Origin: Bacilli bacterium
Lineage (GTDB): Bacteria > Bacillota_I > Bacilli_A > RF39 > UBA660
DNA: 64,000 nucleotides
Direction: 5' to 3'
Assembly: GCA_016297695.1 (NCBI GenBank)
Contig: JAEDGC010000001.1
Location: 23,161-87,160 of the forward strand
Part shown: one piece after another, positions 19,651-20,854 of the stretch
Layout of the letters: each line of letters starts with the position of its first letter
How positions within the stretch are numbered: position 1 is the first letter of the stretch
Notes under the pieces: model-generated
Told to the model about the DNA's origin: nothing
Database searches by the model: none
What the model saw: only the letters and a program-made list of their open reading frames with translations
Position numbers and translations under genes: made by a program

Positions 19651-19728
19651 TGGTGACGGAAACAGGATTTGAACTTGTAAAAACCTGCTCACTAAGACAG
19701 GCGTGTATGCCAATTCCACCATTCCGCC
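19651..19728 (-). tRNA. tRNA with an 8-nt anticodon loop (CUUAGUGA; UAG-type)
   Basis: GGCGGAA-TG-GTG..CAC-G-CCTGT-CTTAGTGA-GCAGG-TTTTT-ACAAG-TTCAAAT-CCTGT-TTCCGTC-A-CCA. One extra U relative to a canonical CUUAGGA loop. Class-I variable loop. Confidence 0.5.
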
Positions 19729-19735
19729 ATATATT

Positions 19736-19810
19736 ATTTGAGTTTTAACCTGTTAAACTATCAACCACCTCCATGAGGCAGTTGAGTGAGATTCGAACTC
19801 ACATTCAAAT
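19736..19810 (-). ncRNA. circularly permuted tRNA mimic (closed acceptor, open anticodon stem)
   Basis: ATTTG-AAT-GTGAG-TTCGAAT-CTCAC-TCAACTG-[CCTC-ATG-GAGG cap]-TGGTTGA-TA-GTTT-AACAGGTTA-AAAC-T-CAAAT. All tRNA helices are present, in the order 3' half, cap, 5' half. Confidence 0.55.
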
Positions 19811-20047
19811 AATATTTTTTTCGTATGGCAATGTATTAAACCTCTGCAGTGTACTTCTACAGCGTGCAACTCATACACCAACCCCATTTTCGGCTATATC
19901 CATACTTGTCCAGACAAACAACTTATAAGGAGTTGCCAACCTTCAACTTTCGTATGAGCACGGGTGAGTATCCGGACTATCACCTTTATTTTGTGCTATT
20001 AGTTATAATCCAGACTACACCACGAGGAGGTTGCACTATCGTAGTCC
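19811..20047 (-). ncRNA. about 240-nt structured RNA 5' of the permuted tRNA mimic
   Basis: R-like TCAGAGGACTACGA and S-like AAAGGTGATAGTCCGG (GGACTA/TAGTCC can pair). Long-range helix CGTGCTCATAC/GTATGAG..GCACG. GAAA loops. A CCTTATAAG...TATGG receptor-like motif. Confidence 0.4.
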
Positions 20048-20784
20048 TCTGAGTGAAGAGAATCGAACTCTTGTTTCCGGATCCAGTAAAAAATACTCTT
20101 ATAAAACAGGGAACTCCTTATATTTCCAATAATAATTATAAGCCATTTTATTTTTTGCTATGCTCTCCTTAATATATCTTATTTGTCTATCGTCAAACTT
20201 TTGTTTTAACTCTTCTGTTGTCCATAATTTTTCTTCCTCTAAATCAGAATAAGAAATAAATCTGTTATCAGAGTACTTTTTTATAGGAGTTTGAGTTATT
20301 ATTGATTGAATCACATTATCTATTAAATAATCTGAAGCGATAGACATTGTAGATTGTATTCCTTTTTTAGGTGATTTAATCCGTAAATACTTTTCAGTTG
20401 AAACTTCACCAATAGGAATTAAAAATCCGTATTCTTTCCAAGAAGTATAAAAATAATCAACTTCTTTTTCTGAATAAGTATATTTTGTTGTTTTTTGAGT
20501 ATTAGTTGTACTTCTCGTAGCAGACATTTTTAATACACCTTCATCTTCTGAATAAGAAGATGCTTTACACTGTATTTTATATAATTTATCATTAATATCA
20601 ACGATTAAATCATATCGACAAGAACCGCTAAATGGAATACTACAATAATACCCTCTTTTTTGAAAATCTAAGATACATTGGAGTTCATTTACATCGCCAC
20701 GAATTAAAGTGCTATCCATAGCAAACTGTTTTATATTAAAGTTTTTCTACCAAATCCGGGGGCTTACCTCTAACCGACACCCAG
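20048..20784 (-). tRNA. tRNA-Pro (UGG) interrupted in the anticodon loop by a 666-nt ORF-bearing insert
   Basis: 5' half CTGGGTG-TC-GGTT-AGAGGTA-AGCC-C-CCGGA-TTTGG. 3' half GA-TCCGG-AAAC-AAGAG-TTCGATT-CTCTT-CACTCAG-A. C1-G72/A73 as in bacterial tRNA-Pro. No CCA. Confidence 0.65.
20099..20719 (-). CDS. PD-(D/E)XK homing endonuclease (I-Ssp6803I-like, from memory)
   Basis: 206 aa. GDVNELQ...RYDLIVD...YKIQCK gives the E/D...QxK catalytic pattern of the intron-encoded PD-(D/E)XK family. Fills almost the whole insert in tRNA-Pro. Confidence 0.55.
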   Translation of the reverse strand: MDSTLIRGDVNELQCILDFQKRGYYCSIPFSGSCRYDLIVDINDKLYKIQCKASSYSEDEGVLKMSATRSTTNTQKTTKYTYSEKEVDYFYTSWKEYGFLIPIGEVSTEKYLRIKSPKKGIQSTMSIASDYLIDNVIQSIITQTPIKKYSDNRFISYSDLEEEKLWTTEELKQKFDDRQIRYIKESIAKNKMAYNYYWKYKEFPVL

Positions 20785-20818: not shown

Positions 20819-20854
20819 TGTATATATTATAACAAAAATTTTTTAAAATTTCAA
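20819..20854 (-). promoter_or_regulatory. class-2 promoter, copy 5
   Basis: TTGAAATTTTAAAAAATTTTTGTTATAATATATACA upstream of the split tRNA-Pro. Confidence 0.6.

What the first reader, a model, noticed from the sequence alone, without database searches (positions are those of the whole stretch)
19811..20047. 240-nt ornate RNA with ribozyme-like hallmarks between tRNA-Pro and the tRNA mimic
There is no ORF here. On the minus strand I see TCAGAGGACTACGA and AAAGGTGATAGTCCGG, which resemble group I R and S elements (GGACTA and TAGTCC can pair). I also see an 11-bp long-range helix CGTGCTCATAC/GTATGAG(TT)GCACG, two GAAA-containing loops, and a CCTTATAAG...TATGG arrangement reminiscent of the 11-nt tetraloop receptor. 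The hairpin GTGC-AACCTCCTCGTGGTGTAGTCTGGATTATAACTAATA-GCAC recurs at 15040-15081, with the closing stem changed to AAGAGTA/TACTCTT while the CCTCCTCGTGGTG core is kept (a covariation-like pattern). P and Q elements are not evident upstream, so this is not a straightforward intron. Large ornate RNAs such as ROOL and GOLLD are reported next to tRNA arrays in phages, so that class should be tested.
Basis: partly seen in the sequence, partly recalled or inferred. Interest (0 to 1): 0.6.

Follow-up and report, generated by a model that had tools for sequence, protein, structure and literature searches.

The report
Self-cleaving ribozyme plus unclassified phage RNA
The "240-nt ornate RNA" is two things joined end to end: a known type of small self-cleaving (HDV-like "theta") ribozyme that trims the neighbouring tRNA-Pro, and a conserved ~170-nt RNA domain of unknown class that always travels with the downstream tRNA look-alike in a small group of gut phages.

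Summary
All features are on the minus strand.

- **Theta ribozyme, 20047-19993.** This is a minimal HDV-like ("theta") ribozyme. Its first base directly follows the discriminator base of an intron-split tRNA-Pro(UGG). The "recurring hairpin" near 15040-15081 is a second theta ribozyme (15083-15029) behind tRNA-Gln, and its exact sequence is already in the published theta catalogue.
- **Group I signals are coincidences.** The R-like string is the tRNA-Pro 3' end plus ribozyme P1. The S-like string is a variable loop. Rfam gives no group I, ROOL or GOLLD hit.
- **The two parts are separable.** Ten related gut-metagenome contigs were recovered, giving six distinct further copies of the downstream unit. 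Five contigs lack the ribozyme; there tRNA-Pro ends in an encoded CCA followed by AUU. Three carry the identical ribozyme and no encoded CCA.
- **Conserved unit, 19984-19729.** The 170-nt domain plus the circularly permuted tRNA-like module is present in all seven distinct copies. Covariation clearly supports the tRNA-like module. In the 170-nt domain it supports only two helices. That domain's predicted fold is no more stable than shuffled sequence, and it matches no RNA family.
- **Best guess.** It is a stable non-coding RNA processed from the tRNA operon, possibly a Y-RNA-like scaffold. Function is unproven.

The parts
20826..20854 (-). Sigma-70-type promoter (TTGAAA, 17 nt, TG-TATAAT) that should drive the operon tRNA-Pro > ribozyme > conserved RNA > tRNAs
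   Evidence: 11 of 12 consensus matches with an extended -10. No terminator-like site until about 19389-19371. Use of this promoter is inferred, not shown.
20048..20078 (-). 3' half of tRNA-Pro(UGG) ending in discriminator A20048, with no encoded CCA. The 5' half is at about 20783-20750. The two halves are separated by a PD-(D/E)XK homing-endonuclease ORF (20719-20099).
   Evidence: sequence; PF11645, E = 2.9e-23. Intact orthologues are called tRNA-Pro by ARAGORN in L005, L040, L096, L097 and L099.
19993..20047 (-). Theta (minimal HDV-like) ribozyme no. 1. Predicted cleavage is between A20048 and G20047.
- P1: 20047-20041 / 20018-20012 (G1.U wobble)
- P2: 20036-20033 / 19996-19993 (only 4 bp)
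- P3 / L3 / P3': 20031-20019
- P1.1: GG 20011-20010
- L4: 20009-20003
- Catalytic C: 20002 (J4/2 CUAAU)
   Evidence: The region-by-region layout matches published theta entries. The identical sequence sits behind tRNA-Pro in L097, L098 and L101. Activity was not tested.
19985..19992 (-). A-rich linker AAAAUAAA. It travels with the ribozyme; ribozyme-free relatives have CCA-AUU here instead.
   Evidence: Alignment A2.
19815..19984 (-). Conserved 170-nt domain of unknown class (position 1 = 19984). Candidate helices:
- H1: 19984-19980 / 19967-19963
- H2: 19962-19952 / 19876-19863
- Ha: 19948-19944 / 19935-19931
- Hc: 19919-19904
- He: 19896-19879
- Hd: 19862-19844
- Long-range b-e helix: GUAUGGA 19905-19899 with (G)CCAUAC 19829-19823
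   Evidence: It is 92-98% identical in relatives, while the neighbouring GNAT-like gene is 78-92% identical at nucleotide level.
- Hd is replaced by a different hairpin in L096.
- The b-e helix shows an A-U to U-A swap in L040.
- Hc loses one U and one A together in L040.
- All other helices are invariant, so they are untested.
- No Rfam hit.
19729..19814 (-). Circularly permuted tRNA-like module joined to the domain. Order: stem 5' strand, T-arm, acceptor-like stem closed by a loop, D-arm, stem 3' strand. It ends at the 5' end of the next tRNA (19728).
   Evidence: Alignments A2 and A4, with counts.
- T-stem: U-A to C-G in L069 and L096.
- Entry stem: UAUUUG/CAAAUA becomes UAUCUG/CAGAUA in L096.
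- The acceptor-like arm is 5-11 bp, has a different sequence in each lineage, and is always paired and capped.
15029..15083 (-). Theta ribozyme no. 2, directly 3' of tRNA-Gln(UUG). Discriminator is G15084 and ribozyme G1 is 15083.
   Evidence: [quoted passage not shown] In relative L005 the same tRNA-Gln ends in an encoded CCA and has no ribozyme.

Best explanation
The stretch is a composite of two independent RNA elements in a phage tRNA operon.

**1. Theta ribozyme (20047-19993).** It should fold into the HDV-type nested double pseudoknot and cut its own 5' phosphodiester, between A20048 and G20047.
- This frees tRNA-Pro exactly at its discriminator base with a 2',3'-cyclic phosphate. The tRNA then needs end-healing and CCA addition.
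- The downstream RNA is left with a 5'-OH and the ribozyme still attached.
- In this phage lineage the ribozyme is an exchangeable cassette that replaces "encoded CCA + AUU".
- Both copies in the 125-kb phage contig sit where a tRNA is followed by a long non-tRNA RNA. At such junctions no downstream RNase P site would define the trailer.

**2. Conserved unit (19984-19729).** This is about 256 nt: a 170-nt, probably pseudoknotted, domain covalently joined to a YrlA-like permuted tRNA module.
- It would be released on the 3' side by RNase P cutting at the next tRNA.
- It would accumulate as a stable non-coding RNA.
- My preferred function is a Y-RNA-like scaffold. The tRNA-shaped module would engage tRNA-binding host or phage proteins, and the 170-nt domain would bind a phage protein such as the DUF2828 protein encoded 3-5 kb downstream on the same strand.

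**Shown:** the anatomy, the separability of the two parts, conservation, and covariation in the tRNA-like module and in two helices of the domain.

**Inferred:** cleavage activity, transcript ends, the fold of most of the domain, and all of the function.
For: **Ribozyme**
- P1 (with G1.U), P1.1, P3, L3, L4 and J4/2 match the delimited sequences in the theta catalogue element by element; P2 is the exception (see evidence against). Copy 2 is listed there verbatim.
- There are only two copies in 2.08 Mb, and both start at the base after a tRNA discriminator.
- P1 and P2 covary between the two copies.
- Presence and absence swap with encoded CCA at both tRNA-Pro and tRNA-Gln. This matches the published finding that only 4.5% of theta-associated tRNAs encode CCA.
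- A PF09414 RNA ligase is on the same contig. That family is enriched 140-fold in theta-carrying phages.

**Conserved unit**
- It is present in seven distinct sequences (window plus L005, L040, L069, L096, L097, L099), always between tRNA-Pro and a tRNA-Leu.
- The domain is 92-98% identical where the adjacent gene is 78-92%.
- Compensatory changes are seen in the T-stem, entry stem, acceptor-like arm, Hd and the b-e helix.
- The T, closed acceptor stem, D order matches YrlA as described in PMC4201824.
- The DUF2828 gene is on the same strand in the window, L005, L096 and L099.
Against: - Ribozyme no. 1 has only four Watson-Crick pairs in P2, flanked by A.A. It is absent from the held parts of the published list, so it could be weak or inactive.
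- The 170-nt domain has no thermodynamic signal.
- Most of its helices are invariant, and two incompatible folds (H2 versus the RNAalifold fold) fit equally well.
- All copies come from one shallow phage lineage, so part of the conservation may reflect recent common descent and mosaic recombination.
- The Rfam YrlA model does not hit.
- The YrlA motif GNCGAAN0-1G is only approximated (UACGAAAG). Its second copy loses the G in L040, L096 and L097.
- The DUF2828 protein showed no sequence match to Ro60 in the PDB.
Confidence: 0.6

Rival explanations
1. The 170-nt domain is not a functional RNA in its own right. It would be a decayed remnant of tRNA genes or introns, or a processing spacer, that looks conserved only because the sampled phages are close relatives that exchange this segment by recombination.
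For: - All seven copies belong to one lineage.
- The flanking promoter-bearing intergenic regions are also 92-95% identical.
- L096 shows a sharp recombination-like break right after position 122.
- Folding z-scores are about 0.
- Positions 80-162 can be drawn as an acceptor/D-arm/anticodon-arm relic without a T-arm.
Against: - The domain is more conserved than the tRNAs on either side (88-95%) and than the 41-aa ORF (87-90%).
- The few changes that occur fall in loops or keep pairing: Hd replaced by another hairpin, the b-e swap, and the paired single-base deletions in Hc.
- It is retained whether or not the ribozyme and the homing endonuclease are present.
Confidence: 0.2
2. The domain is a cis-acting processing or stability element for the operon. 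For example, it could be a structured block that stops 3' exonucleases from running from the RNase P cut into tRNA-Pro, or an entry or recognition site for an endonuclease that cuts at CCA|AUU. It would not be a trans-acting RNA.
For: - It starts 3 nt after the encoded CCA in ribozyme-free relatives.
- Where the self-cleaving ribozyme is inserted, the CCA is lost. This shows that defining this 3' end is a real problem at this junction.
Against: - 170 nearly invariant nucleotides are far more than a roadblock hairpin needs.
- The domain stays just as conserved in phages where the theta ribozyme already defines the tRNA end (L097, window).
- It is always coupled to the tRNA-like module.
Confidence: 0.12
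3. One reading: the stretch is a group I-derived ribozyme, or a member of the large ornate RNA classes (ROOL, GOLLD).
For: - R-like and S-like strings are present.
- The helix order a < b < c < e, with hairpins in between, has the same pseudoknot topology as P3-[P4-P6]-P7-P3'-P8-P7'. This is my own inference.
- The size, about 140 nt, is close to a minimal group I core.
Against: - No Intron_gpI, GIR1, ROOL or GOLLD hit, even at E <= 10 on 271 nt.
- R is the tRNA end plus theta P1 and is absent in five relatives. S varies.
- There is no conserved G at the would-be 3' splice site: 19822 is A in L040 and L096 and is missing in L097.
- No gene is interrupted, and no P1 or internal guide sequence is found.
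- ROOL and GOLLD are 3-5 times larger.
Confidence: 0.04

Closest known systems
Theta ribozymes (minimal, P4-less HDV-like ribozymes at the 3' ends of gut-phage tRNAs; Kienbeck et al. 2024, PMC10879173)
   Same: - 55 nt, with G1 directly after the tRNA discriminator.
- 7-bp P1 with a G.U wobble, ACC|U|CC|UCGU|GGU core, GG P1.1, 6-7-nt L4 and CUAA(U) with the catalytic C.
- The tRNA lacks an encoded CCA, and an RNA ligase is encoded in the same phage.
- Copy 2 is an exact catalogue entry.
   Different: - Copy 1 has a 4-bp P2 instead of 7 bp and is not in the held part of the catalogue.
- Here both ribozymes sit specifically between a tRNA and a long non-tRNA RNA.
- Close relatives show the ribozyme and "CCA + short spacer" as alternative alleles.
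YrlA-type bacterial and phage Y RNAs (Chen et al. 2014, PMC4201824; Rfam RF02553)
   Same: - A tRNA-like domain entered through the anticodon-stem position, in the order T-arm, closed acceptor-like stem, D-arm.
- The acceptor-like stem is variable in sequence and length. The 7-bp versions resemble M. smegmatis YrlA, which RNase P cuts.
- It is encoded upstream of, and on the same strand as, a candidate Ro-like gene.
- A CGAA-containing motif lies 5' of the T-arm.
   Different: - No hit to the Rfam model.
- It carries a 170-nt conserved 5' domain, against a few tens of nucleotides in YrlA.
- The motif is UACGAAAG rather than GNCGAAN0-1G.
- The protein partner is DUF2828, not a recognisable TROVE/Ro60 by sequence.
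- It lies 3-5 kb from that gene, inside a tRNA operon.
Stable RNAs of unknown function in the phage T4 tRNA gene cluster (species 1 and 2, rnaC/rnaD). This is from my own knowledge and was not checked here.
   Same: Non-tRNA RNAs that are co-transcribed with phage tRNAs, released by tRNA-processing enzymes, and have no known role.
   Different: No sequence relation was tested. The T4 RNAs are 120-140 nt and have no described permuted tRNA module or adjoining ribozyme.
Group I introns in tRNA anticodon loops
   Same: Similar pseudoknot topology of the candidate helices, and a phage tRNA context with homing endonucleases nearby.
   Different: No P1, no internal guide sequence, no terminal G, no interrupted gene and no model hit. 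The R and S resemblance is coincidental.

Membership tests
Theta / minimal HDV-like ribozyme | G at the cleavage site; 6-7-bp P1 closed by a G1.U wobble | tested here: met
   GGACUAC (20047-20041) pairs with GUAGUCU (20018-12); copy 2 has GGUUUGC/GCAAACU. 7 of 7 pairs in both.
Theta / minimal HDV-like ribozyme | 3-bp P3 with L3 reading U-CC-NCGU, and GG after P1 forming P1.1 with the CC | tested here: met
   ACC|U|CC|UCGU|GGU ... GG in both copies, identical in layout to the catalogue rows.
Theta / minimal HDV-like ribozyme | No P4: a short L4 followed by J4/2 that begins with the catalytic C (CUAA or CUAAN) | tested here: met
   - Copy 1: L4 AUUAUAA, then C20002-UAAU. The same L4 occurs in a catalogue entry.
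- Copy 2: GUAACG|CUAA.
Theta / minimal HDV-like ribozyme | P2 helix of about 7 bp closing the double pseudoknot | tested here: inconclusive
   - Copy 2: 7 bp, AAGAGUA/UACUCUU.
- Copy 1: only GUGC/GCAC, flanked by A.A. A catalogue relative with the same P1 (|GGACTAC|GAT|AATAGCA|...|CTAAT|AGCTATT|) has 6 bp plus one A.A.
Theta / minimal HDV-like ribozyme | Cleavage site within +/-1 nt of a tRNA 3' end (the tRNA-associated subgroup) | tested here: met
   G20047 follows discriminator A20048 of tRNA-Pro, and G15083 follows discriminator G15084 of tRNA-Gln.
Theta / minimal HDV-like ribozyme | Mg2+-dependent self-scission that is abolished by changing the catalytic C to U | not testable with these tools
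   Needs in vitro transcription and a cleavage assay.
Group I intron | Match to the family covariance model (P3-P9 core, including the P7 guanosine-binding site) | tested here: not met
   No Intron_gpI hit at the gathering threshold or at E <= 10.
Group I intron | Conserved R/S (P7) pairing, a terminal G at the 3' splice site, and interruption of a gene | tested here: not met
   - R is absent in five relatives.
- S reads UAAGCU or UAAUCC in others.
- G19822 is A in L040 and L096 and is missing in L097.
- The element lies between genes.
YrlA-type Y RNA | tRNA-like domain in the order T stem-loop, closed acceptor-like stem-loop, D stem-loop | tested here: met
   Positions 19814-19729. Covariation is seen in the T-stem, acceptor-like arm and entry stem.
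YrlA-type Y RNA | GNCGAAN0-1G motif near the 5' end | tested here: inconclusive
   - UACGAAAG at 19954-19947 is invariant in all seven sequences.
- The second copy, UACGAAAA at 19825-19818, loses its G in L040, L096 and L097.
- Neither copy has the leading G.
YrlA-type Y RNA | Match to Rfam RF02553 | tested here: not met
   No hit at E <= 10 on 19725-19995.
YrlA-type Y RNA | Encoded within about 4 kb of, and on the same strand as, a Ro60 orthologue, and bound by it | tested here: inconclusive
   - A DUF2828/DUF7788 gene is on the same strand, 3.1 kb away in L005 and 4.9 kb away in the window.
- Its Ro60 likeness was not confirmed by sequence.
- Binding is not testable here.
ROOL / GOLLD large ornate RNAs | Match to the family model; size 500-800 nt | tested here: not met
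   No hit. The unit is 256 nt.

The most novel reading that the evidence does not exclude
The 170-nt domain would be a new class of compact, pseudoknotted functional RNA. It could be a protein-recruiting or self-associating scaffold, or conceivably a catalytic RNA. It would have been fused to a YrlA-like tRNA module to make a chimeric "giant Y RNA" in gut-phage tRNA operons.

Two observations prompt this reading:
- The L1 loop carries a palindrome, CCGG, which changes to CUAG in L040 and so keeps its self-complementarity.
- Theta ribozymes appear to be recruited as exchangeable cassettes that give such RNAs a defined, 5'-OH-protected end.
Probability: 0.2. Interest if true: 0.7.

Novelty: new variant of a known kind. 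Interest (0 to 1): 0.45.

Why it matters
- **A natural contrast for theta ribozymes.** Close phage relatives carry either "encoded CCA + spacer" or "no CCA + ribozyme" at the same two tRNAs. This supports the proposed tRNA 3'-end function. It also suggests why ribozymes are placed where they are: at junctions between a tRNA and a non-tRNA RNA.
- **A possible gap in the published motif.** Copy 1, with its short P2, may be missed by the published search motif.
- **A concrete candidate RNA.** The 170-nt domain joined to a tRNA mimic is a testable example of a non-coding RNA made by a phage tRNA operon. Such RNAs have been known since T4 and are still unexplained. If it binds the DUF2828 protein, it would extend the Ro/Y-RNA idea to a new protein family and a new RNA architecture.

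Tried and rejected
- **Group I intron**, including a permuted intron-exon version that would circularise the tRNA halves. Rejected: no model hit, no conserved terminal G, R and S not conserved.
- **ROOL, GOLLD, RNase P RNA, tmRNA, hatchet, twister, hammerhead.** No Rfam or ARAGORN hits.
- **Protein coding on either strand.** The frames are not conserved.
- **Antisense regulator.** No complementarity beyond chance anywhere in the 2.08-Mb assembly.
- **Paralogues in the same genome.** None.
- **Regulatory pairing of GGACUA (ribozyme P1) with UAGUCC (loop L1).** The loop reads UAAUCC in ribozyme-bearing L097 and UAGUCC in ribozyme-free L005, L096 and L099, so the two do not co-vary.
- **11-nt tetraloop receptor.** UAUGG lies in a Watson-Crick helix that shows a compensatory swap.
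- **Internal promoter.** None above background.
- **Homologue searches that found nothing:**
  - GenBank phages by blastn
  - IMG/VR by protein and by three DNA patterns
  - JGI metagenomes
  - GTDB genome contigs
  - 61 and then 401 genomes of the host family and class
  - 80 IMG/VR loci around kinase homologues
- **A covariance model of the tRNA-like module** gave weak hits. L140 is probably a permuted module. L171 was not interpreted. L176 and L179 are junctions of two adjacent insert-bearing tRNAs, that is, false positives of the dimeric-tRNA kind.

Full report
**Setting**

The window is part of a 124.7-kb phage-like contig (C52) binned into a 2.08-Mb assembly. All features discussed are on the minus strand.

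A strong sigma-70-type promoter at 20854-20826 precedes a tRNA cluster. The first gene is tRNA-Pro(UGG). Here it is split by a PD-(D/E)XK homing-endonuclease ORF (PF11645) into a 5' half near 20783-20750 and a 3' half at 20078-20048. The finding, 20047-19811, begins at the very next base.

**The first 55 nt are a theta ribozyme**

Rfam gave only sub-threshold hits: HDV-F-prausnitzii at 21.5 bits and drz-agam-1 at 19.4 bits. Read against the HDV fold, however, the sequence is complete:
- P1: GGACUAC (20047-41) / GUAGUCU (20018-12), with a G1.U wobble
- P3 and L3: ACC-UCCUCGU-GGU
- P1.1: GG
- L4: 7 nt
- J4/2: catalytic C20002 followed by UAAU
- P2: GUGC/GCAC

The supplement of Kienbeck et al. 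2024 (PMC10879173) lists theta ribozymes delimited by region. [quoted passage not shown]

Copy 1 has relatives in the list with the same P1, for example |GGACTAC|GAT|AATAGCA|GCC|...|CTAAT|AGCTATT|. It is not itself found in the held files. It differs by a short P2: four pairs flanked by A.A mismatches.

A motif scan finds only these two copies in the whole assembly, and both start one base after a tRNA discriminator. It is P1 and P2 covariation between two HDV-like ribozymes.

**The ribozyme is a separable cassette**

DNA and pattern searches of public phage, viral, metagenome and genome collections found no relatives. Protein anchors did.

Contigs encoding close homologues of the upstream GNAT-like protein and of the downstream kinase yielded ten related gut-metagenome loci:
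- In L005, L040, L069, L096 and L099, tRNA-Pro is intact. It ends ...A-CCA, followed by AUU and then GGUGAUA... There is no ribozyme.
- In L097, L098 and L101, the identical ribozyme follows an intron-less tRNA-Pro that lacks CCA.
- L006 and L100 end before the tRNA cluster.

The same swap occurs at tRNA-Gln. The window has theta copy 2, while L005 has CCA plus a spacer.

This fits the published observation that only 4.5% of theta-associated tRNAs encode CCA, and that an RNA ligase family is enriched 140-fold in such phages. A PF09414 ligase is on this contig. The only CCA-adding enzyme in the assembly is on another contig.

Both ribozymes sit where a tRNA is followed by a long non-tRNA RNA. 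I infer that they solve the problem of defining a tRNA 3' end when no downstream RNase P site exists, and that they give the downstream RNA a 5'-OH end.

**The group I reading fails**

- The R-like string is the tRNA-Pro 3' end plus P1, and it is absent in five relatives.
- The S-like string lies in loop L1, which reads UAAGCU in L040 and UAAUCC in L069 and L097. It does not track the presence of the ribozyme.
- The only G that could serve as a terminal G (19822) is A in L040 and L096 and is missing in L097.
- No group I, GIR1, ROOL, GOLLD, RNase P or tmRNA model matches, even at E <= 10 on a 271-nt query.
- The proposed receptor UAUGG pairs instead with CCAUAC (19828-23). The closing pair is A-U in L005, L069, L096 and L097, U-A in L040, and A.G in the window and L099.

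**What remains: a conserved 256-nt unit (19984-19729)**

Seven distinct sequences (alignment A2) all have the same order: tRNA-Pro, a 170-nt domain, a permuted tRNA-like module, then a tRNA-Leu.

The tRNA-like module is well supported:
- The T-stem changes U-A to C-G in L069 and L096.
- The entry stem changes UAUUUG/CAAAUA to UAUCUG/CAGAUA in L096.
- The acceptor-like arm has a different sequence and length (5-11 bp) in each lineage, yet it is always paired and capped, by GAGA in L096.

Its T, closed stem, D order is that of YrlA Y RNAs (PMC4201824). The 7-bp versions resemble the M. smegmatis YrlA that RNase P cleaves.

The 170-nt domain is 92-98% identical among relatives. The neighbouring gene is 78-92% identical and the flanking tRNAs are 88-95%. 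Its few changes are informative:
- Hairpin Hd (19862-19844) is replaced in L096 by an unrelated hairpin, CUUCA-AUC-UGAAG.
- The b-e helix shows one compensatory swap.
- Hairpin Hc loses one U and one A together in L040.
- The palindromic loop CCGG becomes CUAG in L040. This keeps both its self-complementarity and its possible pairing with CUGG at 19913-19910.
- L099 changes a residue in the predicted Ha loop.

Caveats on the domain:
- H2 is incompatible with the RNAalifold fold.
- If H2 and b-e both form, the domain is a large pseudoknot.
- Nested folding energies are no better than shuffles.
- The domain is not coding. It has no paralogue and no antisense target in the assembly.

**Function**

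Nothing here shows function. The most economical reading is a stable non-coding RNA released from the tRNA operon. The 5' side would be cut by the theta ribozyme, or by an endonuclease at CCA|AUU in relatives. The 3' side would be cut by RNase P at the next tRNA.

I lean towards a Y-RNA-like scaffold, for these reasons:
- The tRNA module has YrlA-like architecture.
- An invariant UACGAAAG resembles the YrlA motif GNCGAAN0-1G.
- A DUF2828/DUF7788 gene lies on the same strand 3-5 kb downstream in every contig long enough to show it. Earlier notes of this scan call that protein Ro60-shaped.

Against this reading:
- The Rfam YrlA model does not hit.
- The DUF2828 protein has no sequence match to Ro60 in the PDB.
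I saw such modules next to tRNA-like elements in L109 and L140.

The rivals remain open: a relic kept by shallow divergence, or a cis-acting processing element.

**Verdict**

One is a theta ribozyme, a known kind. Copy 2 is already catalogued, and copy 1 is a short-P2 variant. The other is an unclassified, narrowly distributed, conserved RNA domain fused to a YrlA-like tRNA mimic. Interest is moderate.

Noticed in passing
window 19651-19728 (-): The tRNA right after the mimic has an 8-nt anticodon loop (CUUAGUGA); ARAGORN calls a 4-base anticodon. Its orthologues in L005, L040, L096 and L099 are ordinary tRNA-Leu(UAG) with the loop CUUAGAA, and L097 has GAG. So the window copy carries a one-base insertion. 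It is either a +1 frameshift-suppressor-like tRNA or a damaged gene.
   Followed up: partly
L040:5332-5405 versus window 16890-16965 (-): At the position of the window's tRNA-Trp(CCA), relative L040 has a clearly orthologous tRNA with anticodon CUA (loop UUCUAAA versus CUCCAAA). This is an amber suppressor derived from tRNA-Trp, which hints at TAG recoding in that relative.
   Followed up: partly
window 20750-20783 and 20048-20078 versus L005:8389-8462: Only the window's tRNA-Pro carries the PD-(D/E)XK endonuclease insert. Its D-loop, anticodon stem and variable loop differ from the intron-less relatives, while the T-arm and acceptor stem are identical. This is what a co-conversion tract around a homing site would look like.
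   Followed up: no
L176:2740-3080 and L179:4040-4380: In more distant phages, upstream of DUF2828 homologues, two consecutive tRNA-like genes appear to carry large inserts containing ACAGCAA motifs between their halves. The junction of one 3' half and the next 5' half mimics a permuted tRNA and scores with my covariance model.
   Followed up: partly
L140:19495-19603: A permuted tRNA-like module (T-arm, 7-bp stem capped by UUCG, D-arm) is preceded by GGCAGUUCAGCAAAA in an unrelated IMG/VR phage tRNA cluster. L109:2690-2810 has a similar GUCAGCAAA + T-arm + capped stem arrangement. So the tRNA-like module seems to be combined with different 5' modules in different phages.
   Followed up: partly
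window 21041-21013 and 20854-20826 (-): Two nearly identical promoter cassettes (AATTGAAATTTTAAAAAATTTTTGTTATAATAT) flank the 41-aa ORF 20981-20856. The same duplicated cassette is conserved at 92-95% in relatives.
   Followed up: no
G000 contig C52:20593-21153 (-), just outside the window: The phage contig encodes an RNA ligase (PF09414, 77.8 bits). This is the family reported as strongly enriched in theta-ribozyme phages. The only CCA-adding enzyme of the assembly (PF01743) is on a different contig, C68.
   Followed up: partly
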